Shown here piece after piece: positions 58 through 34,300 of a stretch of 36,683 bases of DNA (positions are counted from its first letter, which is position 1; each line of letters opens with the position of its first letter). The stretch spans positions 64,708-101,390 of the forward strand of contig NW_014040371.1 in assembly GCF_001186125.1 (NCBI RefSeq), read 5' to 3'. The position numbers and the translations under genes were made by a program. Source of the DNA: Sphaeroforma arctica JP610 (lineage: Eukaryota). A model generated the notes under the pieces. It searched no databases. It was given only the letters and a program-made list of their open reading frames with translations, and had not been told where the DNA came from.

Positions 58-3000
58 CTGCATATTGCAAAGCTCACAACACAGCCTTCATCGAGTGCGG
101 CTGTGATATTTGCGTACCCGCACATTTCAACACTACGTTGAGACTGTCACATCCGGATTACGACTCAAGTGCGTTTATCGGGTTGCAAACGGGCAGTCGG
201 AACATGGTTGTAGCCTCATTCAGGTGCGTGTGTCGTTCTTAGTATTATGATACTTACTATTAAAAACGTGATTCTCGACAATTTCGTCATTTTCATCCAA
301 GAATGAATCCGATTATATCTTGCATCATGTTCATCTAAGGATGGTAAGATGGCCCTCACGTTCTTTGCATCTCAACAATTCCACCCATCTTCTGACGGTT
401 TCGTTGTGTCATTGATGGCTGTAGCAGCAAAGCAGCGTATTTATTAAAATACACTGCCCTAATATTTCTAGAATTAATCTCTAGCAACTATTGGGCACGT
501 AATATCTCTCGCATACAGATATCTACTATCTCAGTCTCTCTCACACACACACACACACTCTCTCTCTCTCTCTCTCTCTCTCTCGCTCACTCTCATTGTA
601 AATAAGTTAGTAAAAAGTATGTTCCGCGCTGCGCTGATATCCATATCCGCCACATACCCACAGCTCCAGGTATAGGGGCACCTGAAGGTCTTGCTTGACC
701 CCAGACCCCAGTAAATCCTAAGACAAGCACCACAGGTCTTTGATGTATATGCCTCATTGCACATTGGTAGTATTATGATACTGTACTACATCTGTACCGT
801 GCATATGCCTGTACTTGTGCTGGTCGAGCGTAGTAATATAGCTAGAGTGGTATGCCTTTTGTAGGGTAGCGAATCAGTTGCTCTGTACCAACCTTAACCC
901 AGCACCTCCAACGGAGTCACGATACGCTTGCGTGCAAGGAGATAACAGCCACAGTGGATCCCAAACACACATGTGTACACAGCTGGGCTAAAGACTCCTA
1001 TCTCTAAATAAATAATTATGTTTCACTCTAATGCCTGCCCCATACAGGGGCACCCAGACCATGACCAACTGGATAAACAACCTCAAGGCTGTATATGTGA
1101 GCGCCCGAAAAAGTGGTTTTGGCGATGAATTCAAGGGTTGCAAACTGCACCTGGGATTCTGGGCCACCTTCAATTCGATTGGTCGCGAGTGTGTGGATGA
1201 GATAGCGCGCCTGCATGAAGTGCACCCGGACTACGAAGTGTTTGTCTGCGGCCATAGTCTAGGTGAGGCTATACATAACACGGACAGTACATACTTGGCT
1301 TGTATTTGTAGTCTGGTATCAAGTTGTTAGTAATGCAGCCTGTACCCCCCCTGGCTATCTGAACAACACTGCATCTGTCTGGGGCCTGGTGTAGGTGAGC
1401 CTGACCATACTACTGTACGTTCGGTGTACATGTGGCTGTAGCTAAACTACGTACCTCTTCACTGTGGTTGTAGTCTTGGCGCGTCTATTACTAGCCAAAA
1501 CAAACGTTCCCTATATCCGTATCCGTATTGCGCAGCGTCTGCGTGTGAGCGTAGTTCAGGTGAAACTGTATACGGAGCAATACATGTGTTGCCTGTATAG
1601 ATGTATTTTATGACTTGCCTCTGGGCATGGCGTATCTACGGCTACATAACATACACTGATGACATATATCTGCCTGGCAGAGTGTTCACCTGTACGCATA
1701 GACACCTTAAGATTTGTCCTACGGACTACGTGAGTGTCTTCGAGATGGTACACACGTGTTCGCTGGGCTTGTTCATAGCTGCTGTGTGTACATACTGCAT
1801 ACTATTAGACGGTCTCAGGCCACCTTTCATCCGATTGGTTTCAGAGGGTGTTGATGATACAGCTGGCGCGCACAGTTTGATGTTGAAGTGCACAGTCTGA
1901 GTGAGCCAGCAAACGACAACGGGCCTGTGTATTGGGAAGAGTGTCTTGTGACTTGCGCCATAGACATGATGTTTCTTTTAGTGAAATCGAGTTGAATTCA
2001 CTTGAAGTTATGAAACACATCGTAACAGAGTATATGAGAAATTGCACTCGCCTATACCCACTCGCGCATATTCATGGTCACTCATAGCGTAGCAAAAAAT
2101 ATGGGAAGGTCAATACTGCGTTACTACTTATCTATCCACCATAGTAGGCTCCTGGAATGTAGTGCATCTGTAGAATTCGTGCAGGGCCCAGTACATACCT
2201 CCATGTACTGGAGTCACACGGATATGATTTTTTTGCATCTGAAAACAAAGTATTTTGGGGATATACTTTATACTGATTAAGTGTTTTCGTGATTGGATGT
2301 GATATTCGCGTACCATTTCTAATGCAAACTGTTACGTTTCTCTGCCAATAGGCGATAGATTGGTGTAGTGTAGGCCTGTCTAGGTAACCGAGTTATTCAG
2401 TAGGGAGGTTTAAGGGATGGCACAAAATAGTACACATTGCATGGAATGACACAGTAACCAATCGCCTTTTAACCCATTTTTTTAAATTCTTTTACAATAA
2501 CAAAGTTTCGGACGTTTCGATCCTCCATCGCTTCCAATACAATCAAGCGCTGTTCAAGACTGTCTAGGGTTTCGGGCAAACCCTAAACCCTTCGAGCACC
2601 GTCTGTGTCTGCTGTTTTGCTCACATAGTCTTCTCCTTCAAATATAGGCGGTGCCATGGCTACCTACTGCACTCTGCAAGTGGCTCTGCGTGGTGTTCCT
2701 GTCCAGGGCTATACATTTGGTCAACCACGCACGGGTAATGCGAAGTGGGCGGTATGTTTATTAAGTGTATATGTACTGGGTTACACACACTATATGTGTA
2801 TATGTACTGAGTTGCATACGCTACACCGTATGGTATGGCAAGTATAGAGGTAGTATGCGTCAGTAATAAAAGTCGGAATGTCTATCAGTATATGTACTCA
2901 GTTACATACGCTACAACGTATGGTATGGTAAGTAGCTGGAGATGAAGGGAGGAAGTATGCGTCAGTATTAGAAGTCAACGAGTGGGACGATTTTGATTGG

Positions 3001-11750: not shown

Positions 11751-13625
11751 TTAGACAACACTTAAAAGGTCCTCCTTGCTTGCGTTCGCATGACCGATTT
11801 TCTCAGTTGGTTTCATGTCTGTTCGATTGTCCACTTCTTCATCATCTGATTCAATTTCTAGCTGATCATGCTTGCCGTTGCCTAATCTGTCCAACATTTT
11901 CTCATTGAGGGTCTTCTTGGGTGCCTCAGTAGCTTCCTTGACTGCTCTCCTCGCGTCCTTAGCAGCCGTTCTGGCCTCCATCTTAGAATGATACCTCTGC
12001 AACCATGCAGGCTCTGTGTGCATCCACTCTGGCATCCAATCGAAAGACAATAGCCAGCTTGGCAGCCATTCGGGTTTGTGCTTGCGCAGTTGAAAAACAA
12101 ACACAAAGAACACGATTATCAGGCAAATGGGCACTAATACGCCAACCATTACCTGCCAACCGGCTAATGATAGCCCAAGCAACCCCAATGGAATGAGGAA
12201 GAAGGCAACAATGATATAGAAAACGGCAAACCATCTGTGGTGGGCAGTGATATTTCCCATACCGCGAGCCATCGCCAAGGGGATGCTCCGCATAAAAGGA
12301 ATGGGATACCAAATGGCAATACCGAAAAGGTTGAAGTAGACGTGTGTAAAAGCCAGGACGAGTCCTGCTGAGACATCTGGGGACGACAGAGCTGACAACA
12401 TCCCAGTGATTGTCGTACCAATATTGGCTCCAAGTGTGACGGGGAACATTTTCTCCAGCTTCAAAGCACCTAGACCCACCAGGGGTGTGAGTGTTGAAGT
12501 GGTAATAGACGAAGACTGGACAAGCACCGTGAGAACAGCTCCCACGAGGATAAGTACGTAGCCTGACAACACGTCCCATCTACCGGGGAATGAGAGATTG
12601 ATAGCCTTAAACAGCACTTTAGATAGAGGACCGTTGAAGATGGATTGTAGAACCTTTACGAGTACATACAGACAAACCATCATTTGGATCAGGGCCCAAA
12701 AAAGCAGTGTGGCACCAACCGCCACATCTGACCAGCTATTCTCTTGAGGGCAATACACAAACCATGTGGAATCGTCCGGGCAGTACTTCCAGGACACCAT
12801 AGATTGACCTGATAGTGCGTCTACTTCCTCTTCAGTTGGTGCTGCGGCGATACTCTCGATAAGATTCTTGTTCACCCGGATAATTCGGTTGGTGACCGGT
12901 TTGGTGATCGTTTTAAGGAAATTCAGATCATCAGCTCCTTCGATAGTTCCCATAGATTCAACAGTGGATACTGAAATTTTCTCAAGCACTTGTGTGGCCG
13001 CCTCCAGGGGCAGCATGATCAATACTGACAAGAAATTAAACATATCATGGACAGTTGCACCAGCAAAAGCGCGTCTAAATTGATTCACCTCCCCAATCTG
13101 ACCCATAGAGACGATTGTGTTTGTAACAGATGTGCCGATGTTACATCCCATGATCATGTAAACAGCCTGGTCAACTTGCAAAAGACCAGATGCTGTCATA
13201 GAAATGATGATACTGGTCGAAGTACTGGAACTCTGCACGAGCACGGTGGTCAAGATACCGACTACAAGGCCGGCAATGGGATTATTGAATACGTCTGATT
13301 GGCGGAAAACCATACCAGCTTGTGTACCGCCCAGGACTTGGAAGGCTGATCCAAGTAGATCCAGAGAGATGATAAATACATACAGCGCGGTTAACACGAC
13401 AACTAGTTTCAAGAACATGTAAATTGACGTCCAAAGTTTTTGTTTGCCATTCATGTCTCCCAATTTCATGCCCGAATCAACGAAAACATGATTCCACACA
13501 TCCTCAGATACAACTACATTTCCTTTCGACGAGTCAGAATCCTCCTGCCCGACATGAACGGAATCGCCGGAGGCGATGCCAATGCTCACCTCTCCATCCT
13601 TCTTCTCATTTTGGTATTCGTTCAT
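11751..13625 (-). CDS. Sodium-dependent phosphate cotransporter, SLC34/NptA family, 624 aa, intronless
   Basis: Uninterrupted ORF with two QSSS repeats (LVQSSSTSTS, LVQSSSITTS), G.NIGTSVTNTIV, AFAGATVHDMFN, LGANIGTT and multiple hydrophobic segments. Confidence 0.95.
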   Translation of the reverse strand: MNEYQNEKKDGEVSIGIASGDSVHVGQEDSDSSKGNVVVSEDVWNHVFVDSGMKLGDMNGKQKLWTSIYMFLKLVVVLTALYVFIISLDLLGSAFQVLGGTQAGMVFRQSDVFNNPIAGLVVGILTTVLVQSSSTSTSIIISMTASGLLQVDQAVYMIMGCNIGTSVTNTIVSMGQIGEVNQFRRAFAGATVHDMFNFLSVLIMLPLEAATQVLEKISVSTVESMGTIEGADDLNFLKTITKPVTNRIIRVNKNLIESIAAAPTEEEVDALSGQSMVSWKYCPDDSTWFVYCPQENSWSDVAVGATLLFWALIQMMVCLYVLVKVLQSIFNGPLSKVLFKAINLSFPGRWDVLSGYVLILVGAVLTVLVQSSSITTSTLTPLVGLGALKLEKMFPVTLGANIGTTITGMLSALSSPDVSAGLVLAFTHVYFNLFGIAIWYPIPFMRSIPLAMARGMGNITAHHRWFAVFYIIVAFFLIPLGLLGLSLAGWQVMVGVLVPICLIIVFFVFVFQLRKHKPEWLPSWLLSFDWMPEWMHTEPAWLQRYHSKMEARTAAKDARRAVKEATEAPKKTLNEKMLDRLGNGKHDQLEIESDDEEVDNRTDMKPTEKIGHANASKEDLLSVV

Positions 13626-15515
13626 TTTGAAAGAGTTGGTGTTCTAATCTAAAAAATAGTTGAGAACTTGAGATGTATCTGTGATGAATATGACATTTAG
13701 TTGTATCATCGAAACGATTTTATACGTACATAAATCTTGAAAATTTGAGAAATCTTTTCTTGCTGACTGCTGTCCACACTCTCCATTCCACGTTGTCGTT
13801 TAGCCTCCTAAATGTAATTATTTTAGGATGCTATGCTCCACATTCCACACTCTACACTCTACACACCACACAGAAATACAAGAAAAGTCAAAAGCATACA
13901 CCTATTCGCATGTTATTTAACTGTGCACTGTACAGTGTACAGTGTACACAGTACAGTGTGAATGTATGTATAGAGTAAAAACTACAGAGTACAGAGTGAT
14001 ACAGACACTTCAAAACTTTTTTTTATAAAACAATAAACCTGAACCCTTGTAGGCTCATACATGCAACTCACGACTGACAAAATGTAAATAGAGGACTCAA
14101 CTCAACTCCGTGTCACTCCCACACGAGTAAAACAGATCATTTCAAATATTTATAATTTATTTCTGTGCATCAGTTTTCGTTTCCATAGAGCGTGTGGCCG
14201 TAATCAATTTCCATTGGTGTAGAAGAAATACCTCTCCACAACTCACAACTCACAGTCTTCACACAGACAGACTGATAGACTGTCAATTATAAAAGCTTTG
14301 AATAAGTGCTTTATTGTGGTGCCTGCTCAAGGCATTTAGACCAAGAAATATTTCATCCCGAACAATCGACATAATACTTGGTGGCCTGTTATGTACGCTT
14401 ATAGTATACCATTCACTTAACTGAAATGATTGGTGGGTGTTAGTCCAGCGTTATATCTAATTATACAGTTTTACCGTATATGCAAGATTTCTTTGTTAAA
14501 TGCATCCAACTATTCAAGTGCATAAAGAACTTCGTTTCAATTGTAATTTTCACTTGTACAGTAGTTGTTCTGAAGTCTGATTAAATAAAAACACTGTAAT
14601 AATAGAATAGTACTTCAACAATAAAATGATGAAAAACAACATTTGCCTTGTACTTTTTGACTTAACATATACCTATCTTTTGGTTGCTTCCTCGTAGATC
14701 ATTGATTGCTGTCTGCCTGACTTGAAAAAACTTTTCGATAGATGCCTTTTCATGAGTTTTCGCCCTTTGAATCGACTCTTGAATTCTTTTTTTTCGTCAT
14801 GAGTTTTCGACCTTTGAATTGACTTGTGAATACTAACATGAGTTTTTCGGTCTTTGAAATTAATTCTCGACCCTTGAACGTTGGGAATACTTGCCAATGC
14901 GAATACTTCCGGGTTTTAGATTATGAATGATCGAATATTTTCGCCTGCAAATACAATACTGTCTGAAAAGGTCTTTGTGAATTCTCGTGAGTTGGATCGC
15001 ATTTTGAATAGTCTGAGACTTAGAATATCAAGTCTTTTTCGACTTGGAATATCTCAAATTTGTTCAAGCGATTAGTATATGGTTTTCATAATGTGTTAAC
15101 GTCTTTAAGACTTTAAGATAGGAGGTATATGATTTTTACACTGTATACTTATTTCTGTACTCTCCGATTCTTGTATTATTTTCATATTACTTACCTTTTA
15201 CACTTGTGCTTATATTATTTTCTTATTGCTTGTCTTTTACACTTGTGTTTGTATTTATATAGCGCTTTTCTATTGTCAATAGACACACAGACTTCACTTT
15301 TATAATGGGCATCCCCAAAAAAAGTGGAATGACCATAGTATTTGTAATAGGAGCAATCTGTGCTATATCATCGGAGCATAATCGTAACTGTTTCATTCAT
15401 ATCGAATATATTAAATGCTCTTTAATGTACGGCTTGATATATTTACACTTGTGTTTACTATACAGTGGTTGCCGGTTGTATATGTCTCCAATAGGCCAGA
15501 CATCTTGCTCATTAT

Positions 15516-16771
15516 TTAGTCTCGAGCGTATACAAACTTTTTCTGGTCTAAGGGTTTTGTAAGCATATCGCTTAAAATGTGTGTTGTTGGTGTGTATAGA
15601 AGTCGGATTTCGCCTGTGACTATTTGTATGTGGCGTGTGCGCACTGAGGACTTTGAATTCTCACTTATCTTGATCGATGACTTGTTGTCTTGTTCGATGA
15701 TCGTAGGCTGTGCTTTCGGTAGACCAATTCCTTCAAGCAAGTGCCGTGTCCATACTGCGTCTCGTGTTGTATCTGAGCATGCGACATATTCTGCTTCGGC
15801 TGTCGAAAGTGTTGTTGTCTTCTGTAAGTTCGTCCCCCATAAAAGGGGTCCACCTGCTATCATACCAATCTTTCCTGTAGTAGATTTTGTGTTTTCTGAG
15901 TTTGAACAGTAGTCACTGTCAGCTGAAAAAAATAGGTGTGAAGGGTATATCCTTACTGTGCGTGATGCCCAAATCCCGTGTTCTTGACAAGTATCGTAAA
16001 ACTCGCTTGGCGGCTTGTAAGTGGCGTTCCATCGGTGCGACTAAATGACGTCCCAGTAGGTTCACAGAAAAGGATATGTCCGGTCTTGTGCCATCCGCCA
16101 AGTATCGTAAGCATCCTACAATATATTGAGAAGCTTTGATGTCAGTAGGTGTATCTTTGTCCGTAGCAATGTAACCGGTTTCAATGCAAGGGACCCGAGA
16201 TGTAATGCATTCTAGTAAGTCAAATTCTTCAAGTAGATCCATTGTGTATTGGCCCTGGTGTATGCTGACTTTGCCCGGTGTGTCTAGATTGATTTTGAGT
16301 TTGAGAAACCAGCTAGGCTCGCCCATATCTGTAGTGTTCCATTGTGTCTTCATTGCCTGAGTTCTTGCATCCGGATCTGCTATCGATTGACACATCACAA
16401 TTTTGTCGCCCACATGTACAAATAGTAAACATAGTAAATATAGTTGTCCGGCTGAAGTTCGTTTGACAAATAAAGTTTTGTCCTCATATAGTGGAATGTA
16501 ACCTTGCTTGATACAAAGCACCTTGATTTGTTGATACCAGAGCTCGCCGGATTGAGGTAAACCAAATAGAGCCTTTGATACTTTGCACACGACGGTCTTG
16601 TCTCCTTTTAGTGATCGTGTCAGTAATGCCTGTTGAGTAGGAGAAAAATGTTGATTTAGTAGATGATATCCTCTGGGTACACGCATATATATTGGCTCCT
16701 CGGGGTCGCTATTCAGGTAAGCATTCGGTGTGTCGTAATGGCGGACGGTCATGTTCGTGTGGGTTAGCAGT
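15516..16771 (-). pseudogene. Copia RT (C-terminal part) and RNase H
   Basis: ORFs 15919-16791 and 15516-15863 carry RVT_2 and Ty1 RNase H motifs; there is a frameshift near 15915. Confidence 0.9.
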
Positions 16772-17535
16772 TGTAATAGACGGGCCTCCACCTCTATGTA
16801 ATAAACGTACTCTTAAGCAGAATGTAAACTATAAACGTACTCTTAATAGTACGAGGAACTTAAGTTTCCTAAATGGTTTTTATCGGGTGTATTATTTAAT
16901 AACTTTTCCATTTTACATATCATATATTTGGACAAGGCCATTAAAAAGGCCCAAGTAAAATACCAAACATAAGATTTCGTCTAGTTCTATTAATAGAACT
17001 ATATTTACTTTACAAATTTATTTATATCTGAATACTTCGGTAGCCAGATGGCTCAACCGAAGATAGGTTTCTAGGGACTATTAACGTTACCTAGTTTATC
17101 CTCCGTTCAGTCAACCAGATGTGCCAGTCTGATGAAGGCTAAGTCGATAATTCTTGATAAGTGGCAAGTTATTGGTCAATGCAATAACTAAGGACATCAA
17201 GAGTTTTTTTTCTTTTTTTTCTTTTCTTTTTTTTTTAAGATATGATTCTATGAGTCTATCAGATTCGCCCCAATGAAACATACCATAGTTTCTAATAGAG
17301 CGATAACGAAACACTAAATAAAATCCCTTCGGCGGAAACAGTACTGAGAGGATTATATATAGGCAATGTCTCAGCCTCAAAATCCCTCAGAGTATTGCTG
17401 TTTTCACGAGGCATACCTAACTTCACTAAAAGACTCATTTCGTTTATTTACTTTGAATTTCACAATACTTGGACTTTACCTACGCGTTTAATTACTCTAA
17501 GGCGTTAATATCGCCTTGATAGACCGAATCTTACA
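16772..17535 (+). mobile_element. Solo LTR (764 bp) of the methyltransferase-carrying gypsy family
   Basis: TGTAA...TTACA termini; 4-bp TSD CAGT at 16768-16771 and 17536-17539; homologous to the LTR at 24055-24822. Its removal restores the copia RT reading frame (RICMAL|LTHTNM). Confidence 0.93.
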
Positions 17536-20500
17536 CAGTGCCATACATATTCTAAATGTATCTTTGTTGACCACTGGGGCATGGCTTCGAGTATAGTCAA
17601 TTCCTTCAACGGCGGACCAGGCATCGATGGACAATCAGCTCTTCAGTCTGACTACAATGCCTTTGTCGTTCTTTTTCTCAACAAAGACCCATTTCGGACT
17701 GAAAATTGTCTTGTAAGGTGGCTTGCTGTCAACCAGGGTGAGTGTTGGCTTGGTGATGACAAGTGCGGTCAACTCTTGATTGATACTGGATAGCCATGAA
17801 TCTTAATTCGAAAATTTTGCAATATCTGAATGTGTAACGCGATTCTTTGGTGTGCTGGCGAGGTGTTTTTCTGAAAATATAAACAGATACTCATGTTCTG
17901 TCATCAATCGTACGCTGAGTAATGGAATCGTGAATGTCTCATCCAGTAGGGCTATTCCAAGATCGAAGAATTCGGCAGAGCAAGTTGGTGTAATACAGGT
18001 CTCATCAGCATTTTTCACTGTATAAGTATTGTTGGCGGTTGTCGGTAAATTTAGTGCGACTGTCTTTTAAGAATATGGCAATATATGCTTGGTCGCACAT
18101 GAATCGACGGCGAGTCAATATCCTTCTGGACCTCTCATTTGAGGCAGTCTTGGGTTGAATTCTGTGTCTACCTGGTTGGCATGAGCATTCACCATAAAAG
18201 CATTTACTGGTTGTTGGGACCTTGTATGTGTACTGCTTGGTTTTTGTGTATGCGCGTATTCCGACCGTATCCAATTGACATATTGTTGTTGTTGTACTGC
18301 GGCATCTTTCTGGTCAAATTTAGCTTGCAGTCTTATTAGCAAACTGTCTGCAAAATTAGGATTAGCAATTGCAGAATTAGCGTGTTGTTGTCGGTTTCTT
18401 AATCCATAATTTTTGTATCCTCCTCGTCCTCGATTTCCAAATCGTCTGTTGAATCCTCCGCGTTAGTTTTGGTCGGGTGTCCAGTATGGCTGAGTCCTCT
18501 AGCTGTTACTATTAGAACCGCAGCCTTGTCCTAAATTTGGAAATTGCCTCGTCCGAAAAATCTTCCTCGACTGTGGTAGCCTCTTCGGCCTGTTAATCTC
18601 CCTCGGCCTCTCGGATTGAATTTTTGTCTGAATTATGGCAATCAACAATTTTGTGCGATGTGTCCATAAATTTTGCATTTGTGACATTTTCTGTTAGTAG
18701 TGGCAGTAAAGACAGCGCCCGAAGTCGATGTTGCATTGGTGTTCAGAACACGGGCTTCAATTTCCAATGCAGTCTGTTGTGCATATGCTAAGGCAGCTCC
18801 GTAGCTTAGTACCATAGCACTGTCGGTAAGCAGGTGAGTTACTATAGAGATTTAATTTGTATGTAGAGCACCGGTTAAAAATATGATCTTCTCGGTGTCG
18901 TTAAGTACGAAATTCATATTGAAGGCCTCAACAAATTTCGTGTTGAGTCTTAGAATAAACTTATCCATGTTCTCGTTGTCCTGTTGTCGTATTTACCCGA
19001 GTTCTTGTCTCATCCGTATCTTGTCTCCTTCTCCGACGTGACCATAATTATGGTATAGCTTTGTAAATATTATTTTTTCGGAGTCATAGTTGCACCGAGA
19101 GTAGCCATTATGTCTGGCGATACAGAATTGATTATGTAGTATTGACCCTCTCCAATTTCTTCATCTTTCTAGGCTCGTTCATAATTGGTGTTGGTGGCGG
19201 GCTTCATTGCGTGGTGTATTATATCACATATATCTTCGGCTCGTAAAATGACAGTGAGTAAAATGACAGTGAATATACATACTTATATATATATATAGTT
19301 GTATACGTATATTATGTTAATTGTATTGATGATTAACTCATAGTATTTTTATTAATAGTTTTATTGATTAACGCATAGTATTTTAATTAATAGTATTGAT
19401 TATGATGATTATATTGATTGTGAGGCCCAGGATAGTAAGGACGTGGCCCAATATGGTGCGGTCTCTGCGCCTGGCTTGCGAGTTGATATCACTCATACCA
19501 GGTATGTGTGCGGGTGTTGAATGTATCTGTGCCGTTGAGTGTTGAAAGGGATTTTGTGGTGCTAACAATTGTGTAAGTGATGGGAGTGCCTGAGCCTTAG
19601 TATTCCTTCTTTTTGCTTTCTGTTTCGCTTTAGGTGTCGTTCTCTTGTTGCGTGCTTTTGACGTTTTGCTTGCTGGGGTTGCTGGGGTTGCTGATAACGT
19701 CTCCACATCTCCCTCAGGCTCAGGGACTGTTTTGGTCGGCTTAGGCTCGCTGCAAACTACTGTTTTGGTCGGCTCAGACTCGCTGGACACTACTGTTTTG
19801 GTCGGCTCAGGCTCTGTTTTGGGGCGGCTCAGGCTCTGCTCTTTTGTCAGCCGGTACTGTTTCTACCGGCTCAGACACAGGCTCAACAATTGCTGATTCT
19901 GTAACTGGTATGTCAACATCTGCTTGTGGCTCTATTTCCTTCTCGTTGTCTGTTATCTTTCCGTCGTTGTTGGACTCGTATTGTATATTGCTGTCCGAAT
20001 CCGATGTATCTTTGGTTTTCACAGGCTCCTCCACATCCGTATCATCACTTTGACAGCTATCAAAGTCTGTTGGTGCACAATTTATCAGTATCACTTTGTC
20101 CGTGGGGAACATCTTCACTGCTATAGGATCTTTATAGGCATGTCCGATACGCTTCCATAGGCTGTCATCTATTTTTACCATCTCGTACGTATTATCTCTG
20201 TACCTCTTGTTCTCATCACACGGAATTAGTCTAGCGTGATACTCTTTCCTGGCACGCCAGCCAATCTCATCTATAATAGCATACTATATGGTTTCACCCG
20301 ACGTGATTTGCATACTATATGGATAATTTTATTTTTTTCAAAAATGGCAAGTATGTATGATACAATGTATGAACATATGGAATGGCTCCCATAGTCGCTG
20401 TAGTGGTTCAGGAAAGATTGATGGGAAGAAGTGGTCAGTAAATTCCCGTTTGAAGCTTGGGCCAAGTGAGTCGACAATGGAAGATATGTGCCGAGTCAAT

Positions 20501-21389
20501 TCGGGCCGTTGTTGACAAAATACTGTTACTATCGAATGTTCCATATATTCGCTTGCTGACCTGCTATGTAGAGTACCCACCTCTGTGGTACGGATCAGGT
20601 CTGCGCCGTGTAGTGGCGCGGAATGGGTTAGTGCAGAGTATGAAATACCGAGAAGGACCAGGTTATCCGTCATAATCCGGTCGAGAAGCGAGGATGGGGG
20701 TAAGCCAATGCCGCACCAGACCACGGATGAATTCGATACTATAGCGACATATTAAGTATAAATACTTCTTCTCCATAAACGTTTGGTTCTTGATGGTGAT
20801 TCTTCGCATTTTGCGCTCTCGTTCTTGAACCCAGGGGAGGACTTCTTGTATAGGTTGAAGAGATATTCCAGATGTATTGATTTTGTCCAACCAAGCATTG
20901 TACATGTCAGTATTAATATCATTCCAATCAATAGTGACAGTAGTATTTGAATGCCACGTACCACACTCTTTAGGCATTCCTTCCGTGGCCATTAAGTAGC
21001 TCTTTAGATATGCCATTTGAGATCCAGTAGTTGTGACCATAAGATTTTATTTCTTACTCGGCTCTTCTACTTCGACCTCCGCATCGTAATCTAATTACAA
21101 ATCCAACTCACCAATACCATCTACTTTCTCGGCGTCTACAATATCTTGTTCGCATTGACGAGAATACTTGCTAGCCGCGGTGGGTGAATAGTAATGCTTC
21201 CGTATGTTACCAAGCCGGGTTCTTGTCTTTGTCACTTTATTTTTATAAAACTTAATCTCCCTTTCAGCCATACCGGAACAGGCTGTTTGCGAAATAATGA
21301 ATATTGTAATAGCCCGGCCTCCACATTAGACTCTATGTTATAAACGTACTCTTAAGCAGTACGTAAATTATAAATGTACTCTTAATAGC

Positions 21390-21701
21390 AAACCTAGATA
21401 TATACAATTCTTTAGTCTAGCAATGAATGCTTCACAGTTGAATTACCCAAGGGTTAAACAAGAGCTATTAGCCATAGTGGCAGCTCTAACACACTTCCGT
21501 GATTTCTTATACGGAACAGCATTTACGCTGATGTGTGATCAGAAATCACTTCAATATATGAAAGAGATGAAACCCGATTCACAAATACTGAGTCGCTGGC
21601 ATGATACAATATCAAAGTTTCATTTTGATGTAAAACATCTGCCAGGAATACATATCGATTTACCGGATATGCTATCACGCTTCGTAATTACTAGCCACTG
21701 A
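21390..21701 (+). pseudogene. Ty3/gypsy RNase H
   Basis: QFFS..MNASQLNY...ELLAIVAALTHFRDFLYG..F.LMCDQKSL...RW..ISKFHFDVKHLPG...DMLSR. Confidence 0.92.
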
Positions 21702-22191
21702 CTGGAAATGGAATCCTAGGTGGTTTGAACTGGCTCAAAAAATATTTGGGCCACATACCATAGATATGTTTGCTGCACATCATAATGCACAACTATCGAA
21801 CTACAGGACTTTAAATCATCCTGTGGGAGACACCTTTCAAATAGACCTCTCCAAACATAATGCGTGGGCTAATCCACCATGGCAGTTAATTGCCCAGCTA
21901 TTAAATTATGTTCATATACATAAAGCTACCATCACGTTGTGCTGCCCATTACGGAGTAAAGATCCATGGCTCAGTAAATTAATAGGCATGATACAATGCG
22001 AGCCAATATATTTAGATTGGGAAGTAGATACTTTCCTATATCAGGATAGCCGAGCCGTTCAGAAGACGCCCTGGAGACATACTATAATATGTCGTATAGG
22101 TCCCATTGGAACAACCAAATGGACCCCTTCTGAGACCTTCCTTAACAAGGTCAAAGAATTTCCACTCTCTACCCAATTGAACGTTAAGTAG
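21691..22191 (+). CDS. DNA N6-adenine methyltransferase domain (Dam/DIRS-MT-like) within gypsy pol
   Basis: TDWKWNPRWFELAQKIFGPHTIDMFAAHHNAQL (SAM-binding D.FA motif), DTFQIDLS..NAWANPPWQLI (catalytic NPPW), ..TLCCP...PW. Separated from RNase H by a 1-nt frameshift. Confidence 0.88.
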   Translation, partial: LATDWKWNPRWFELAQKIFGPHTIDMFAAHHNAQLSNYRTLNHPVGDTFQIDLSKHNAWANPPWQLIAQLLNYVHIHKATITLCCPLRSKDPWLSKLIGMIQCEPIYLDWEVDTFLYQDSRAVQKTPWRHTIICRIGPIGTTKWTPSETFLNKVKEFPLSTQLNVK

Positions 22192-22343
22192 TTCAAAGGC
22201 AACACAGCACTTGAAGTCTGTGGACAAGAAATACAATCTACTAATGACACTACTGTTAAGAAGCGTCAGTCTCTAGCTAGGACTCTGTTTAATAACATAA
22301 AGTCCAAGCCCGAGGTCTTTCATCCCTATTTCTAAAAGAGTTA

Positions 22344-23333
22344 ATGAAAGACAATCCTGAAGCGTATACACATATAATGCGACTATTTAATAAGTCAGGT
22401 GTATCTAACGCACATGAGCGCACTAATGACACTCATGCAAAAGCAAAACAGGCGTCTGGAAACACTACAGACTTAGAAATCACGCAAGTGGACTCTCAAT
22501 ACCCTACCTTTATTCTGGAGGAGCAGAATGATAAAAACATTCTTGCTTGGCTGACGCAAAATCATAAGCTGAAGCACCAGAACGTAGTAGACGCACTTAA
22601 AGAAGCTAAGCGAAATGAGATCGCGCATCCTAAGCTGGCAACTTTAGTTGACAGAGTATATCAGTCATGTACAGACTGTGATCTCAATCAGATCAAGCGC
22701 TATGAGTGCGCACCGCTTAAGAGCGTGACTGAAGATGTTCCATGGCGCAGGGTCATAATTGATCTGGTTGACCTGCCCACGTCCGAGCACACAGGCGACA
22801 GTTACGTATGCCACTTCTTTAATGTGGCGTCACGGTTTAACTTGCTATATCCATTAAAGGATAAGAATACGCAGACCGTGGCAGAATTATGTTTCCAAGT
22901 CCTTGTTGACCACGGGTGGCCGGGTATTATGTGCACTGATAACGGTAGTGATTTCTGCGATGACGTTATGGAATCGCTAGTACTTGTATCAGGCATATGC
23001 CATAAGATAGGTATGCCATATAAGCCGCAAACGCAAGGCGCGAATGAAACGCGCCATAGAAGATATAAGTTCTTCTTGCTTACTGCATTAACGGATGATG
23101 CAGATGATTGGCCGTACCACCTTAAGTGGGTACAAACACAGATGAACGAGTGTGCTGATCCGGTTACAGGAACTACACCCGCTCACTATTTTCGTGGCAG
23201 ATATAGTGCGTTACAAATCCCCTTTAACAAGGACGAATCTGATCACCATGAGTTACCATGGTTAGAGAAGGTACAACGTATTTATATCGTTGTATATCCT
23301 TGCTTGCGAGAAATACGCAATATAGCCTTATAA
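22344..23333 (+). CDS. Retroviral-type DDE integrase (rve) with HHCC zinc finger
   Basis: HKLKH...CTDC; PWRRVIIDLVDLP (D), TDNGSDF (D), PYKPQTQGANE (E). Confidence 0.92.
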   Translation: MKDNPEAYTHIMRLFNKSGVSNAHERTNDTHAKAKQASGNTTDLEITQVDSQYPTFILEEQNDKNILAWLTQNHKLKHQNVVDALKEAKRNEIAHPKLATLVDRVYQSCTDCDLNQIKRYECAPLKSVTEDVPWRRVIIDLVDLPTSEHTGDSYVCHFFNVASRFNLLYPLKDKNTQTVAELCFQVLVDHGWPGIMCTDNGSDFCDDVMESLVLVSGICHKIGMPYKPQTQGANETRHRRYKFFLLTALTDDADDWPYHLKWVQTQMNECADPVTGTTPAHYFRGRYSALQIPFNKDESDHHELPWLEKVQRIYIVVYPCLREIRNIAL

Positions 23334-23740
23334 AAAAGGCAAAAGCGTTGGAACACTACCAAGAAGATAGCAGAGTATCAGGTCGGTGACAGAGTTAACA
23401 TCTAATTGGATAGGTCCATATATAATCTCTGTAGCAGACACTAAAAGTGGAACGTACGAGGTAAATAACCCCGATGGTTCTAGTGCGCGTAATATAGGCA
23501 CAAGTCGTATTCCGACTACAGAGATAATACTCACATGAAGACATGACTCTAATGCCCCTCTTGATCATTCTGAATTTAAAGACATCATATGGAGAACGGA
23601 TAAGGGAGGCTATACATACTATCGTACACGCTTTATAGACGGTACAATAGCTGAGTTGACTTCAGATGCTTTCGATAATCAAGACTATTTAAAAGCCTTT
23701 AATCGAAAATGGCGTAAACGCCTGCATGAGTCACAAGCTG
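23334..23740 (+). pseudogene. Integrase C-terminal GPY/F module and a degenerate chromodomain-like segment
   Basis: WIGPYIISV...GTYEV (~23408-23463), then EFKDIIWRTDKGGYTYYRTRFIDG...FDNQDYLKAF. Confidence 0.55.
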
Positions 23741-24054
23741 AAAAAGATAGCATGTTTCCATCGTCTGAAGGAACGCAAGTTAAAACTTATCCGCCTACAG
23801 TATTTATCCCGAGCCATCCTTCATATATGCTTAAGACACTGAAGCGTAAGGAACGTCCAGTCGACCACCACGTACCTACTGGACCTAAGCCCAAAACTCA
23901 CAGGGTAACCGAGAACATTTAACTTCTCCGCCTGAGAAACATTAACTATATGTTATACTACTTAACGTTTTCGACCCGTTTTTCCCTTTTTGACCAATAA
24001 TCAGCTTGAGTGAGCAACTTGCTTCTCTTGGGTCTCAAAGCTGGGTGGGGGCTG

Positions 24055-24822
24055 TGTAATAAGCCGGGCCTCCACATTAGACTCTATGTATAAACGTACT
24101 CTTAAGCAGTTCGAGGAACTTAAGTTTCCTAAACGTACTCTTAATAGTATGAGGAACTTAAGTTTCCTAAATGGTTTTTAATGGTTTTATTAATTAATAC
24201 CTTTTCCATTTTACATATCATATATTTGGACGAGGCCATTAAAAGGCCCCAGTAAAATACCAAACATAAGAGTTGGTTTAGTTCTATTAATATAACTATA
24301 TTTACTTTCCATCTTTATTTAGATCTGAATACTTCGGTAGCGAGATGGCTCAACCGAATATAGGTTTCTAGGGACTATTAACGTTACCTAGTTGATCCTC
24401 CGATCCGCCAGCCAGATGTGCCAGTCTGATGAAGGCTAAGTCGTTAATTCTTGATAAGTGGCAAGTTATTGGTTAAGACAAGAACTAAGGACATCAAATG
24501 TATTTTTTTCTTTTCTTCTAAAGAGAGGATTTTATGAGTCTCTCAGATTCGCCCCAATGAAACATACCATAGTTTCTAATAGAGCGATAACGAAACACTA
24601 AATAAAATCCCTTCGGCGGAAACAGTACTGAGAGGATTATATATAGGCAATGTCTCAGCCTCACAATCCCGCAGAGTATTGCTGTTTTCACGAGGCATAC
24701 CTAACTTTACTAAACGTCTCATTTCGTTTATTTATATCGTTATTTACACGATATACAGAATTTACCTACGCGTTTATTTATTCTAAGGCATTAGTATCGC
24801 CTTTATTAGACCGAATCTTACA
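24055..24822 (+). repeat. 3' LTR of the gypsy element (followed by a second copy of its terminal ~130 bp, 24823-24954)
   Basis: TGTAAT...GAATCTTACA, preceded by the PPT; colinear with the solo LTR at 16772-17535. Confidence 0.9.
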
Positions 24823-26919
24823 ACGAGGCATACCTAACTTTACTAAAAGTCTTATTTCGTTTATTTACTTTGATATTTTCACGATACTTAGAATGTACCT
24901 ACGCGTTTAATTACTCTAAGGCGTTAATATAGCCTTGATAGACCGAATTTTACAGTATAGCGTACTTCAATGCAGTTGGGCAATTAATGCCCCATACCTG
25001 CCACCAGTCAAGTACAATACTACCTTCGCTCACTTCTTTCCAACACTCACTACCTACACCATAGTCCCCACGCCTGTAGAAGTAGTTTGATAGCTCCTGT
25101 ATAATCTTGACAAATAAAGCTTCCTGATACCCCTCCTTGGGAGCCACATTTAGTACACGCCTCAATATCGTATGCACCGCGTTGCGCACATAATAATGTC
25201 CTATCGTTGTCTCATCAATAAATGCCGGATCAAGAGCACCCGCTGCAATATAAAATGTATCATCTCGTACAAATTTCCAATTACCGCGCTTGCCACTGTT
25301 AAGCGTGGCCAATATTAATTCGGCGACATCATTGGCTTCCCCCGTTCCTCTAGTAAGTGCTGTCCATATACTCTCCGCTTTTCGCATAGCCGCAGATATC
25401 TTTGATGCTGTGGGTTTATTAGAATCTGCCAATCTGAGTAGTACAAGGATTGGGGACATGATGTTAAGTATGGTTTGTATCTTGTCCCACCAGGGTGTCG
25501 AACTAACCCACGATCTGACATCCTGGTATCGTCGAATCATTGCTTGTAATTTCTTATCTGAGCACTTATCTTTTATGTACGCCACATATTTCCGTGCGTA
25601 GCTAAATTATCCTGAAAGTTATGTATATCAGCTTGCAGAGGCGTACTTTGACGGTCTGCGGATGTGAATTCATCTATCTAAGCCATTAATATGGGACATG
25701 ACCAGAATAGTTTTGTTACAATGTCGCATTCATCCAGTACTTCTGCTATTATAGGCACAGCACAGACCTTCTCCATGACCAAATGCATAACATGCATTGA
25801 GTCATGGCTGCATGATATCCATGGTCTCGCTTTCTCGACAATAGGTCAGGCTGAGGTCATATTACCAGTAGTATCTGTCACTATAAGAAACACATACTGT
25901 CTTTCAAACGGCAATGTGTCTAAAATATCTACCAACATATCCGCATGGCATTTAGCAGTTTTTGTTATACCATCAAAAGTGTACTTTTTGGAATTAAACA
26001 TACCCACATGATGGGGTCGTACCTATCAGCCAACTTAGTAACCACATTCATGAGTTGTTCTTGGTGCACTGTGGCACCATCTATCGAAATTGTAGCACTC
26101 GTTACTGGCATTAGCTTAACAAACAACGTTGTGATTTCTTCTTTAGCTTTTTTCGTCTCTAGAGGTACATATATTTCGGAATACTTGTGTCTATTGATTA
26201 TTGGGTGATTTGGTGCAGCGCGTACTGCACTCAGTACTTCCTTGAAGTATTGGCTGTCTAGTACCCTGTTTGCAAGCCCGTGTCGTACAAAGAATTTTGT
26301 CAGTGCCGAATCTAGTTTATCCCCAGACTTGATGTCTCCAGGAAGATAGGACGCCTTGAACTTCTTATGCATTCCTTTCATTGGGAACATAGGTACATCT
26401 TCTAAAATACATTGTTTTTTGACAGGGGGTGTACAATTAGTATCATCCCCGTCACAACACTAAGCATTCAGATCAATAGTCACGGTTGATCGTTTGTTTG
26501 CATACGATTTCTTTGCTAACGTTGAGACATGAGGCGCGGTATTCATCACTATTGCTCTATATTCAATGCAGACTGCAGCGCTCTGTTTTGAGCAAGACAT
26601 AACGAGCCTTCGTCTGCATTCTGCACTCGATTCTTTTAACATCGTTGACTCGCATGCATTGCATTGCAACAGCGTCACGTTCATCCCTCCTTCCTTCACT
26701 ATTTTAAATTTAAAGTACACGAATGAAGGACATGATTTCCTGCCAAGATTACCGTACACTCTGGGAGCCGTAATGACTATCATGTGGCTTTTATTGTGCA
26801 CTGTTACTTGCTATTCTGATATATCTAGTTTGTAGACAGCTCTATGTAAAGTTTATTAGTTTTCATTGTCTAATTTTCAAATTTCAATTTTACGTTCACA
26901 AAGTCACGAACAATCGGCT

Positions 26920-29416: not shown

Positions 29417-31286
29417 CTATAATCCGAACATGCTAAAGGGTGAAGCGTACGCCATGGGCTTGACATTGGGGTGCGGCTGGTAGGAGGACAAAGGAAAACA
29501 ATGGGTCATGGGGTGTGTGAGGACAATTAGTTCAAGAGTATGGGGCTAAAAATAGGCAAATACTCGCGTGCAATTGCGATGAGGACAAACTTGTTATGCG
29601 AATCAATAGTAACCTGTGAACACATGCGTCATTGTGCTGGCCTGTAGCAATGAGAAAATCATTTCGAGAGTATATGATCCTGCTGTAACCTCTTGGAGCG
29701 CTTGATGTTGACTACTGTTTCAGAATTCTCAGTATATGCGCGTGTCAATATATGCTCATGCACAATAAATCTTGCTTACTATACCAAAACCAAGCGAGCT
29801 TACACACAATGTTTCGGTTCAATGACTCTTGTCGCGACTACCTACAACGCCCCGATAAAAGGAAAGACATTCTTCTACCCAACTATACCATGGTGCCCGG
29901 CCAATCACATTTAAATATGTACCATTCATCTTGTGTTTGATACGCAACACACGTATTATTATAATTGCGCCTACGCCAGTCTGTATAGTGATTCTGAGTG
30001 TAGCACATACCACAGACCCGAACGTTGTGAACTTGGGCGTGAAGTCATCGCCCCTGACCGTGATGAAAGCTCCTTTGTTGCCCATCTGATCACTGTAGGT
30101 ATCAACCAATGGTAGAGTTAATTCTAATTCAAAGTCAGTATATGAGATAGCTCACATGGCAAAGTCCGTATATGAGATAGCTTACATGTCACTGATACGC
30201 TAATCGACATGGAGAGGCCGTTACCGCAAAAGAAACTTACGAGGATGGATATGCACTAGATAACACATGCGTTCTGAGACCCGCTACCTATATGGAACAT
30301 AGGCAGCGGTTGCGTAGTTGCCTAGTAACCGTTGCCAGGCAACGTGTGAGGCAGAGCATGCGTCGTGTACGATACGACAAGTCTAAAACACGAGAGCTTC
30401 TCATTGAGATTGGGCACGTGCAACCGTAATAGATAAAGAGTATACTGGCAACTTGGGGGGAGACATCCCTGATCTGACTGTTGATGACGTACTGCGCGAT
30501 GCGTGCTGCTGGGCAGGATCCACGCAGCGCATGGGCCACTGAGTCACAGTCTATCAAATACTGAGTAATGTATCAGAATACATGCGCGCGTGAGTGTGAG
30601 TGTGTGTGTGTGCGTGCATGTGCGTGAATGTGTTCGTATGTGTTTGTATATATGCCCATAGCGAGAATAGGTGTCAAGACATACCAGTAGTTGGGTGCTG
30701 AGAAGACGGTGATGCACTTGCCGTCATGGTGGATTTCATATCCGTTGTCCTTCACCTCGTGACTACGTACCACATAATCTGTGACCCAAAGACAGAGTGA
30801 GTTCAATAAAATATTGTTATAACAAGTGTTGAGATAATTGCATTGGGAGAGCTCTGTATATATATATACGTAAGCGTTAATTAACAAGTGCATACATATT
30901 CCAAGGCCACACAGAACTAGACAGTGTATGGTTGAATAACATATAACGTATACATCGCAGTTCACCAGTGAGTTTCCCATACCTAGACCGTTTAGTTTGC
31001 AGAATGCATCTGTGACATCAGGTCCGAAGTGCAGACCCACACCACGCTTGGACGGCGCACGACCAGGCAAGATCTGAGGGTCAGCCCACAGCATCTCACA
31101 CATGAGTCCTGAAAAAAGAAATAGGTACATGCCACGCAAATGTGTGAATACTTTGAATATATATATACATATATATAAAACAATGATGGGAGAATGAGGC
31201 AATCGACGTATAGATAGCCTAGACTACTACGCACAGAGATACTAATAAAATATCCATCATATATATATATTTATACATACATACGT

Positions 31287-31328
<42 letters not shown>

Positions 31329-34300
31329 CAAAAGCTTGGGATAACAAACACAATACTTGATTGGTCAGGCACCTCAATCCCAGGGGGTAAATACTTGCGC
31401 AAAATCTATACTGGCGATATGAAGTACACAAAGCTAGAAGGAACCTGAATCCCCGCTTATCGGGCTATTGCATTGCGCACACACATGTCAGCGAACACAT
31501 GATCGCTGAGTTGGCATAAAAGGACACATGCCGACTACAGAGAGGGTTGTGCATGACATAGACAGTTGTGTCAGTCTGACGGCTTTGCGGAAGAGCTATT
31601 GCTCACTAAGGTGTGGGTACATACGGATACAGCAACATGCACCACACCAGACAAGCAAGCACAGACCACTTGCTGTGAACCACCAGACAAGAACGCACAG
31701 ACCACTTGCTGTGAACCACCAGACAAGCACGCACAGACCACTTGCTGTGAACCACCAGCCAAGCACGCACAGACCACTTGCTGTGAACCACCAGACAAGC
31801 ACGAACAGACCACTTGCTGTGAAGCATCAGACAAACACGCACAGACCACTTGCTGTGAACCACCAGACAAACACGCACAGACCACTTGCTGTGAGCCACC
31901 AGACAAGCACGCACAGGCCACTTGCTGTGAAGGCTCGGTCACTACGCTAGCCCCACCTGCAGCACAATGGCATGTCACGTGATAGACGCTCAGGCAATGC
32001 GTGTACGTATACGCGTTGGGTACATGTGCAAGTATGTTCTAACTGGTACATACAGAGCCCCTACGTACCTGAATCTGGGGGCTCGCGGAAGCGATCAACC
32101 TTCCTCAAATCATTCAAGGTGACCCCGTCCTCACTGAACAGGCCTCCGTGCACGCACAGCACCTTGCCGGCGATGCAATGGGCCAGAGGCACCGTCCTGA
32201 ACACTTCGTGGAACAGCTCTACCATGATATCCGATCCCTTGGCCTTGACCTCGCCATCGAATCCGTACATCTTGTTCATGTTGGTGCTCTCGTGGTTGCC
32301 TCGGGCCATGTAGAAGTGCTCGGGGTATAGCAGCTGTGCCAAGGAATGGGGTGTGGGGAGGTGTGTGTGTGTGGGGTGTATATAAGAGGGTGTTATCAGG
32401 AGAATCCTTTGTGCTCGGGGTGTAGCAGCTGTGCCGAGGAATAGGGTGTGGGGAGGAGTGTCTGGGGGGTGGTGTATATAAGAGGTGCTATCACGAGAAT
32501 CCTTTGTGCTCGGGGTATAGCAGCTATTGAGTGTGAGTTGAAAGTGGTGTGTGAGCATATGCAGACGAGCGTGCTATTATAAACTGTGGGTCTAGGCTAA
32601 AGGAGTGATACAAAAAGACGGGTAAAGGGCAATAGCTTTGATCGCATGCGTCAGAGGGAGCGTCAGACAACCCTGGTGCCCTGAGTATATGAACTAAACA
32701 GGCATAGGAAGCGAGAAGAAGTGCGTGTGTACACAGGGGAAAATCTACCGTGCAACGTGACACGGGCGACTATATCGGATAGGAAGTGGACTATCCGGTG
32801 TACGACCACTCACTTGGCAGCCCTCGAAACTAGAAGGTTCGCAAACACGTTAAACACATGGGAGTTCGCGCAACACTTTTGTGCAGAGACAGCAACCCTG
32901 CGAGCCTGGACAGCGCAGAATCGGTCACGACTTTCGATCCCGTTCTCAACAGCAAGGTGCGGCATGGGCACACCTACACTACACACCTTGTAACTGAACA
33001 GCACCAGGATCACTTCTACACACCTTGTAACTGAACAGCACCAGGATCACTTCTACACACCTTGTAACTGAACAGCACCAGGATCACTTCTACACACCTT
33101 GTATCTGAACAGCACCAGGATCACTTCTACACACCTTGTATCTGAACAGCACCAGGATCACTTCTACACACCTTGTAACTGAACAGCACCAGATCATTCN
33201 CAGCTAGTACNACNNCACGAGTACNCTACTACTACNCTACGTAGTACAGAACCTAGTACGTACGTAACGTACGTACGTACCGTAACGTACCGNNNNNNNN
33301 NNNNNNNNNNNNCCAACCTACGTTAACGTGGTAACCAAGGACGACCAGGAGTACCTACTTCTACACACCTACTAGTCTGAACAGCACCAGGATCACTTCT
33401 ACACACCTTGTAACTGAACAGCACCAGGATCACTTCTACACACCTTGTAACTGAACAGCACCAGGATCACTTCTCCACACCTTGTAACTGAACAGCACCA
33501 GGATCACTTCTACACACCTTGTAACTGAACAGCACCAGGATCACTTCCAGCGAGAACGAGCCTCTGTCTACAAAGTCGCCGTTAAACAGGTAGGGATTGG
33601 TCTCGGATGGGGTGCCATTGAGCTCAAAGATATTTAATAAATCGTAGTACTGTCCGTGTATATCTCCGCAGATGGTGAACTTGCCGTCTTTGGGCACCTT
33701 GACGTCCACGAGTGTACTTTGCGCCTTGAAATAGGTCATGACCTGCAACATTCCAAAATAAAAATTAGGAACGTCCCAAAACAGAAAATTGGGAGTCGTA
33801 AATAATAAAGGTCTGGCGCAATTGGTGGGATTTAGTGTATACAAGTGACTTGTACCGGCTTGAAAAACACGGATAATGACATAAAGAAGCGAAGTCCGAT
33901 GGATGGACAAAAAGCACAGAACACGCGCCTGTACATACTTACAGTAACATACATACACACACGAATCAGTCACGTCTTATGACACGGATAAAGAACACAG
34001 AACACGCACCTGTACGTACTCACAGTAACACACATACACGCGCAAATCAGTCACGTCCTGTGATACGGACAGGCAATAGCCACACACCTGCAGAAGGATC
34101 TGATACACAAACTTGCGGTGCAGTCGCCTCTCGGACTTAAAGTGCGTCTTGAGCTCCTCTACAAACTCCTTTGTGATTTTGCCATCGACCAGGCGAGGCC
34201 CTTCGTACGAGTCTTCTACGTGCATGCTATCCACATCCAACCCCTCCGCCACACTCTTGGCTCCCTCCCTGTACAGTTTATAAGCGTAAGTGTGTCAGGC

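What the first reader, a model, noticed from the sequence alone, without database searches (positions are those of the whole stretch)
21305..24954. Ty3/gypsy LTR retrotransposon carrying a DNA N6-adenine methyltransferase between RNase H and a DDE integrase
Seen: a gypsy-type RNase H ending DMLSR runs, after a 1-nt frameshift, into DW...GPHTIDMFA...NAWANPPW, followed by an HHCC/DDE integrase, a GPY module, a PPT and a TG..CA LTR. The family makes 4-bp TSDs. Established: this RH-adjacent Dam-like methyltransferase is characteristic of DIRS elements, which integrate with a tyrosine recombinase and lack DDE integrase and TSDs. Inference: this is a chimeric lineage, an integrase-using LTR element that has a DIRS-type 6mA writer in its pol polyprotein. 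It could methylate its own cDNA or provirus to evade silencing or to mimic active chromatin. The SAM-binding and NPPW motifs are intact although the copy is otherwise decayed. I do not know this as a standard gypsy architecture, but I cannot exclude prior reports.
Basis: partly seen in the sequence, partly recalled or inferred. Interest (0 to 1): 0.88.

Follow-up and report, generated by a model that had tools for sequence, protein, structure and literature searches.

The report
Decayed Dam-carrying gypsy retrotransposon copy
This is a broken copy of a gypsy-type jumping gene whose family really does carry an adenine-methyltransferase-like domain between RNase H and integrase, a kind of element already described in a 2026 preprint; the one addition here is a predicted, worn-down chromodomain that the preprint says this lineage lacks.

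Summary
The architecture is real. 21305-24954 is one dead insertion: an 84-nt 5' LTR stub fused by deletion to RNase H, then Dam-like domain, HHCC, DD(35)E integrase, GPY, PPT-like tract and a 900-bp 3' LTR. Two intact relatives (P0001, P0002) hold RT-RH-Dam-integrase in one ORF, 66% identical in the Dam domain, so it is no one-off DIRS fragment. RH and RT group with integrase-bearing elements, not DIRS-like ones. A host gene clusters with Sphaeroforma arctica proteins. A May 2026 preprint already describes 'DAM-LTRs', names an ichthyosporean lineage in S. arctica, proposes the same self-methylation idea, reports 6mA enrichment, and found no activity in E. coli. The scan has noted this element kind before in other genomes. 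Corrections: the '1-nt frameshift' is a loss of about nine codons; this copy's TSD matches 3 of 4. Additions: the Pol C-terminus is predicted to fold as a chromodomain that lacks most of the aromatic cage, though the preprint says this lineage has none; and the methyltransferase model's closest solved fold is the RNA cap enzyme PCIF1. Catalysis is untested. Already known; interest 0.25.

The parts
21301..21304 (.). left target-site duplication copy (ATAT; 3 of 4 match to the right copy)
   Evidence: frame of flanking gene
21305..21388 (+). first 84 nt of the 5' LTR; joined by an internal deletion to RNase H coding sequence
   Evidence: 77 of 82 aligned bases equal to 3' LTR start; loose ends of other copies at 21385/21390
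21389..21686 (+). C-terminal part of Ty3/gypsy-type RNase H
   Evidence: Pfam RT_RNaseH 3.5e-19; 65-69% identical to P0001/P0002; tree
21691..22113 (+). Dam-like (PF05869)/PCIF1-fold methyltransferase domain, DMFA at 21763, NPPW at 21871; open frame continues to a stop at 22189
22114..22562 (+). poorly conserved linker, with a stop (22189) and a frame change near 22320-22343
   Evidence: 29% identity between P0001 and P0002
22563..22679 (+). HHCC zinc-binding domain of integrase
22746..23330 (+). DD(35)E integrase core and following helices; stop at 23331
   Evidence: Pfam rve 1.1e-6; 48-49% identical to P0001/P0002
23334..23535 (+). GPY/F module, broken by a deletion near 23402 and a stop at 23536
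23569..23745 (+). predicted divergent chromodomain lacking most of the aromatic cage
   Evidence: no Pfam hit
24037..24051 (+). imperfect G-rich polypurine tract, 3 nt before the 3' LTR
24055..24954 (+). 3' LTR, TG..CA, 900 bp, with a 133-bp internal duplication
   Evidence: 691 of 748 aligned bases equal to the solo LTR
24955..24958 (.). right target-site duplication copy (GTAT)
16772..17535 (+). solo LTR of the same family, perfect 4-bp TSD (CAGT), inserted in a Copia-type RT gene
21101..25606 (-). target: hAT-like transposase gene split by the insertion (24956-25606 before, 21304-21101 after)
   Evidence: right flank aligns to P0172 36-240 (E 3e-16 pairwise), left flank weakly to 243-271 (E 0.008); P0172 has Dimer_Tnp_hAT at E 0.002, below cut-off

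Best explanation
This is a dead, internally deleted copy of a multi-copy Ty3/gypsy family whose single Pol ORF carries a Dam-like methyltransferase domain between RNase H and integrase and a predicted divergent chromodomain at its end; in intact copies the domain likely methylates adenines of the element's own reverse-transcription intermediates. Shown: architecture, family-wide presence, conservation, gypsy-type RH/RT, integrase-type ends. Inferred: because the domain follows RNase H after only about nine residues, it would be packaged with RT-RH and act in cis on the RNA:DNA hybrid or nascent cDNA. From the preprint (correlation, not cause): such seeded 6mA would be kept up by host AMT1 after integration and favour transcription. 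Inferred: the chromodomain-like tail would tether the integration complex to chromatin without reading methyl-lysine. This copy can do none of this itself. Odds: about 0.95 for the identity, about 0.5 for the DNA/hybrid self-methylation mechanism.
For: P0001 (1376 aa) and P0002 (1400 aa) are stop-free ORFs in the order RT-RH-Dam-HHCC-rve (protease hit in P0002), 66% identical to the window domain over its length. Between them the domain keeps 67% identity, against RT 62, RH 77, integrase core 57, linker 29, tail 24. Contigs of 4 of 4 runs cover the domain as deeply as RH and integrase and far above the flanks (no copy number). RH tree: window RH lies with 17 of 17 integrase-bearing rows, apart from 40 of 40 integrase-less RT-RH-MT rows, SH-aLRT 100; RT tree agrees at 91. 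Model pLDDT 92.4; top folds are N6-adenine methyltransferases. NPP(W/F) in 17 of 22 DAM-LTR-type rows. [quoted passage not shown] Preprint: more methylated and more expressed DAM-LTR insertions in S. arctica and A. whisleri.
Against: No activity has been shown: eukaryotic DAMs gave no 6mA gain in Dam-deficient E. coli (preprint). P0002, an intact ORF, has CPPW; 5 of 22 DAM-LTR-type rows depart from NPP(W/F). Iyer et al. judged DIRS1 MTase domains likely inactive (PMC4738411 passage). 6mA enrichment could follow from transcription rather than cause it (inference). Pfam Dam score is under the curated cut-off. The chromodomain model rests on 3 sequences (pLDDT 71), best Foldseek E 0.016, best Z 7.6, which the tool calls a middling score; profile-profile comparison with six fetched chromodomains gave probability 0.7%.
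Confidence: 0.5

Rival explanations
1. The domain is an RNA methyltransferase: it puts N6-methyl on the element's own genomic RNA (cap-adjacent or internal A), helping stability, packaging or priming, and the DNA 6mA seen on insertions is host AMT1 following transcription.
For: PCIF1 structures fill ranks 1-6 in Foldseek (E 9e-5 to 7e-4) and rank 1 in VIA (Z 9.8, against 7.7 for T4 Dam; rRNA methyltransferases at 7.9-8.2). Iyer et al. place DIRS1 MTases in the PCIF1 clade. Negative E. coli DNA assay.
Against: A shared fold shows no function; identity to PCIF1 is 13-16% and sequence search gives E 2.1. The model covers only the catalytic domain of PCIF1. Pfam's best family is phage Dam. DAM-LTRs co-occur with AMT1 hosts (9 of 13, preprint).
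Confidence: 0.22
2. The domain is kept as a non-catalytic nucleic-acid- or SAM-binding module, or as a structural spacer for RT-RH, and methylates nothing that matters.
For: CPPW in intact P0002 and 5 of 22 departures from NPP(W/F); PMC4738411 passage; negative assay; earlier scan notes report catalytic loss in other genomes (unchecked).
Against: D-x-F-A and NPP(W/F) are the most conserved columns of a 71-sequence alignment; NPP(W/F) is kept in 17 of 22 rows; a close Dam-less relative (P0006) shows the domain is not needed structurally by gypsy Pol.
Confidence: 0.25
3. A one-off: a DIRS fragment landed in a gypsy copy, or RH-MT and integrase belong to two nested elements.
For: The copy is broken at both sides of the domain.
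Against: Every piece of the window maps in order on P0001 and P0002; RH is gypsy-type; one LTR pair and one target site enclose everything.
Confidence: 0.02

Closest known systems
Ichthyosporean DAM-LTR lineage (Fernandez-Moreno et al., bioRxiv 10.64898/2026.05.21.726589, 22 May 2026; Pirum, Abeoforma, Sphaeroforma arctica)
   Same: Ty3/gypsy Pol with a Dam-like domain, DDE integrase and LTRs; host gene clusters at 90% with S. arctica proteins; the three best Dam hits after P0001 are Abeoforma whisleri proteins (P0009-P0011, 43-45%).
   Different: The preprint's text says the lineage 'lacks chromodomains'; here a divergent chromodomain is predicted, and it is clearer in Abeoforma P0011. Whether this exact family is in their tables could not be seen (supplements closed, figures not held).
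Chromoviruses, incl. chromodomain-bearing DAM-LTRs (P0019, P0027, P0057) and Dam-less P0006
   Same: GPY/F module followed by a chromo-fold segment; RT and RH trees put the family in a 96-supported set with them.
   Different: Cage residues mostly lost and the loop holding the third aromatic is 3 residues shorter; 4-bp TSD here, whereas 5 bp is described as common for chromoviruses (PMC4007536 passage).
DIRS1-type retrotransposons with MT domain
   Same: Homologous MT directly after RNase H, same D-x-F-A and NPP(F/W) motifs.
   Different: RH and RT fall in another clade; DDE integrase, direct LTRs and TSD are present; no tyrosine recombinase hit in any piece of the element that was scanned.
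PCIF1/CAPAM cap-specific adenosine N6-methyltransferase
   Same: Closest solved fold of the MT model.
   Different: Only about 140 residues, 13-16% identity, no WW or helical domain; substrate unknown.

Membership tests
DAM-LTR (preprint) | PF05869 Dam domain in a retrotransposon Pol | tested here: met
   E 1.7e-5 window (just short of the preprint's 1e-5), 7.4e-6 P0001, 7.6e-5 P0002; fold
DAM-LTR (preprint) | Ty3/gypsy-type RT/RH and DDE integrase in the same ORF | tested here: met
   (RT only in relatives; deleted in this copy)
DAM-LTR (preprint) | LTRs and target-site duplication | tested here: met
   TSD 4 of 4 for solo LTR, 3 of 4 for this copy
Ichthyosporean DAM-LTR lineage | Ichthyosporean host and Dam closest to Abeoforma/Pirum/Sphaeroforma elements | tested here: met
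   MT tree set of 17 rows with Abeoforma rows at SH-aLRT 91, also holding unnamed rows
Ichthyosporean DAM-LTR lineage | No chromodomain (as stated in the preprint) | tested here: not met
   True by Pfam but a chromo fold is predicted and matched; read as a limit of the preprint's detection, not as non-membership
DAM-LTR (preprint) | 6mA enrichment and expression of insertions | not testable with these tools
   needs modified-base reads; only contigs were served
Chromovirus | Chromodomain at integrase C-terminus after GPY/F | tested here: met
   predicted only: all 40 listed Foldseek rows are chromo/chromoshadow-containing entries or cpSRP43, best E 0.016; VIA Z 7.6, rmsd 1.9, 59 aligned to SUV39H1
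Chromovirus group I (methyl-lysine reading) | Aromatic cage Y24/W45/Y48 | tested here: not met
   by alignment to fetched canonical chromodomains: S/H/S at the first, F at the second, third deleted; cage definition from PMC3350952 passages
Chromovirus | RT falls within the chromovirus clade | tested here: inconclusive
   groups with chromodomain-bearing rows, but no named reference chromoviruses and only 2-3 Dam-less gypsy rows were in the trees
DIRS order | Tyrosine recombinase instead of DDE integrase; no TSD | tested here: not met
   DDE integrase and TSD present
Active N6-adenine DNA methyltransferase | Methyl transfer to DNA adenine | not testable with these tools
   motifs present; preprint's E. 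coli assay of other representatives negative

The most novel reading that the evidence does not exclude
The ichthyosporean DAM-LTRs are chromoviruses in disguise: they keep a cage-less chromodomain that Pfam misses, may share one Dam capture with chromodomain-bearing DAM-LTRs instead of being an independent lineage, and pair it with a minimal PCIF1-like writer that works on the element's RNA or RNA:DNA hybrid, which would explain why it was silent on E. coli DNA. The chromodomain part alone is about 0.85 likely; the whole reading less.
Probability: 0.25. Interest if true: 0.55.

Novelty: already known. Interest (0 to 1): 0.25.

Why it matters
A retrotransposon that writes the host's 'active chromatin' mark on itself would be a real anti-silencing strategy, but that idea and this lineage are in print since May 2026 and the key step, catalysis, is still open. 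What this window adds is small but usable: an intact-ORF relative with NPPW and one with CPPW as a natural test pair, a fold argument for trying RNA and hybrid substrates, and a correction to the statement that the lineage has no chromodomain, which bears on the count of independent Dam captures.

Tried and rejected
No host genome was held, so copies, TSDs and full-length elements could not be counted; the TSD length rests on two insertions. ESM Atlas gave no answer. No RNA holder is on record among the listed runs; runs guessed to be RNA hold the element but show no transcription. No listed contig spans the whole stretch. Chromo-like segment: no Pfam hit at E 0.5, no PDB sequence hit at E 10, a six-sequence chromodomain HMM did not score the window segment, P0001 or P0002 meaningfully, hhalign probability 0.7%; only the transitive link and the fold support it. 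MT tree (68 rows): DAM-LTR rows need 2 changes, the deep branch has support 79, the set is the top hits to the window domain and has no outgroup, so it decides nothing on the number of captures. Trees were quick LG+G4 without bootstrap; 11 fetched proteins were dropped beforehand (8 cluster mates of kept rows, plus P0021, P0106, P0165), as were rows covering under 60% of a profile; 'DIRS-like' means RT-RH-MT without integrase, not a checked recombinase. The hAT flanks hit no Pfam family or PDB sequence directly. Scan look-up by sequence found nothing. Rejected: one-off DIRS insertion; nested elements; 'not previously described'.
Full report
Observation. Three-frame translation shows RNase H (to DMLSR), a Dam-like frame (21688-22188), an integrase frame (22296-23330), a GPY piece and a C-terminal frame. 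Pfam gives RT_RNaseH E 3.5e-19, Dam E 1.7e-5 and rve E 1.1e-6; the last two are below their curated cut-offs. The HHCC motif spans 39 residues and the catalytic D and E are 35 apart in the window, P0001 and P0002 alike. The 3' LTR runs 24055-24954 and matches a solo LTR at 16772-17535 in 691 of 748 aligned bases. The solo LTR has a perfect CAGT duplication; this element has ATAT/GTAT. In both, the interrupted gene (a Copia RT; a hAT-like transposase) has the duplicated codon in the same frame on both sides, and both flanks of the element map in order on one hAT-like protein, the left one only weakly. So this is one insertion with a probable 4-bp TSD, judged from two cases.

Family or accident. 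A search for longer relatives returned 2 proteins among 79 candidates: P0001 and P0002, stop-free ORFs of 1376 and 1400 aa. Both have RT, RH, Dam, HHCC and rve in that order; P0002 also hits aspartyl protease. Six of seven window pieces map on them in order; the linker piece does not align. The RH/Dam junction in both holds about nine residues that this copy lacks, and other copies leave loose ends there, so the frameshift is a small deletion. In 4 of 4 runs laid, contigs cover the Dam domain as they cover RH and integrase, orders of magnitude above the flanks, and at the stop codons at 22189, 23331 and 23536 nearly all depth reads another letter; these figures are no copy number. Between P0001 and P0002 the domain keeps 67% identity, like RT (62%) and unlike linker (29%) or tail (24%), which points to purifying selection (inference; no DNA for dN/dS).

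Gypsy or DIRS. P0002's best solved relative by sequence is Ty3 Gag-Pol (E 6e-63). Of 730 representatives with E up to 0.001, the best 150 were listed. In an RH tree of 61 rows the window lies with all 17 integrase-bearing rows, apart from all 40 integrase-less RT-RH-MT rows (SH-aLRT 100); the RT tree of 58 rows agrees at 91, with two partial proteins inside the gypsy side. The integrase-less rows are called DIRS-like from architecture only.

The methyltransferase. The model from 71 sequences has pLDDT 92.4. Foldseek ranks PCIF1 structures 1-6 (E 9e-5 to 7e-4); VIA gives PCIF1 Z 9.8 (rmsd 2.9, 132 aligned), DIMT1 8.2, ErmE 8.0, T4 Dam 7.7. D-x-F-A and NPP are the conserved columns. NPP(W/F) stands in 17 of 22 DAM-LTR-type rows; P0002 has CPPW. 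The fold is an N6-adenine methyltransferase; the substrate is not determined.

Host and prior art. The Na/Pi-transporter protein at 11754-13625 clusters at 90% with two Sphaeroforma arctica proteins, and the best Dam hits after P0001 are Abeoforma whisleri proteins. bioRxiv 10.64898/2026.05.21.726589 (whole main text read; figures not held, supplements closed, and these may list this family or show its domains) reports DAM domains in non-DIRS LTR elements, defines an ichthyosporean lineage in Pirum, Abeoforma and S. arctica, finds more methylated and more expressed DAM-LTR insertions in S. arctica and A. whisleri, proposes deposition on RNA-DNA intermediates followed by AMT1 maintenance, and reports no activity in Dam-deficient E. 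coli. Earlier scan notes on other genomes reach the same preprint; I had found it and did not check their sequences.

What is added: a chromodomain. The preprint says this lineage lacks chromodomains. After GPY, the window, P0001 and P0002 share a segment (45% identity between the two intact ones) that aligns colinearly with the Pfam-called chromodomain of P0006, a Dam-less relative. A profile of the segment finds the matching C-termini of P0041 (E 0.002) and Abeoforma P0011 (E 0.003) among 172 sequences, and these in turn score on a chromodomain profile at 2e-5 and 6e-6; the direct comparisons fail. A model from the three family sequences alone has three strands and a helix (pLDDT 71, about 80-85 in residues 11-40). 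The listed Foldseek rows are chromodomain-type entries throughout, best E 0.016; VIA's best is SUV39H1 chromodomain, Z 7.6, rmsd 1.9, 59 aligned, and chromo-type entries lead the list. The scores are middling, but position, alignment and fold agree: about 0.85. The first cage position is S/H/S, the second F, and the third is deleted, recalling group II retrotransposon chromodomains, which lack Y24 and usually Y48 (PMC3350952, passages). A search for Sphaeroforma + retrotransposon + chromodomain gave 3 papers; I read the preprint and passages of PMC4007536, and saw only the listing of PMC11244446; none seen reports this. Other searches; the library lacks most subscription papers.

Mechanism. 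Shown: the domain is part of Pol, directly after RH, conserved, with catalytic motifs. Inferred: it travels in the particle with RT-RH and methylates the hybrid or nascent cDNA in cis; host AMT1 then maintains the mark (preprint model). PCIF1's in vitro order ssRNA > hybrid > ssDNA > dsDNA (PMC9178792, abstract only) would fit both this and an RNA-directed rival, and would explain a blank on E. coli chromosomal DNA. Iyer et al. group DIRS1 MTases with PCIF1 and call them likely inactive (PMC4738411, passages). Odds: DNA/hybrid self-methylation 0.5, non-catalytic 0.25, RNA writer 0.22, artefact 0.02.

Verdict. Observation confirmed with small corrections; interpretation right on architecture, untested on function, and already published. 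Already known; interest 0.25, kept above the floor by the chromodomain correction and the PCIF1-like substrate lead.

Noticed in passing
window 15519-19200 (-): Decayed Copia-type element (RVT_2 E 1.2e-17) holding the solo LTR. By eye gag- and protease-like sequence runs almost straight into RT, as if its integrase were deleted; that reading is recalled resemblance, not tested.
   Followed up: partly
window 21101-26810 (-): Decayed hAT-like transposase that is the target of the DAM-LTR insertion; both family insertions in the window lie inside other transposons.
   Followed up: partly
window 24690-24939: 133-bp tandem duplication in the 3' LTR, absent from the solo LTR.
   Followed up: no
P0035 and P0072: Long ORFs with protease - endonuclease (Exo_endo_phos) - Dam - RT - RH - HHCC/integrase and a long-branch RT; may be the LINE-like Euglena DAM-LTRs of the preprint, not checked.
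   Followed up: no
P0002 residues 692-695: Intact ORF with CPPW in place of NPPW: a natural comparison for catalysis.
   Followed up: partly
window 19383-20751 (-): Unassigned frames with PEPEPT-type repeats between the Copia and hAT remnants; no convincing Pfam hit for the two scanned.
   Followed up: no
window 11751-13643 (-), 30573-34294 (-), 1016-3495 (+): Host genes: Na/Pi cotransporter with a 90%-identical cluster of three; intron-rich PP5-like phosphatase and lipase-like gene, both named from recalled motifs only.
   Followed up: no
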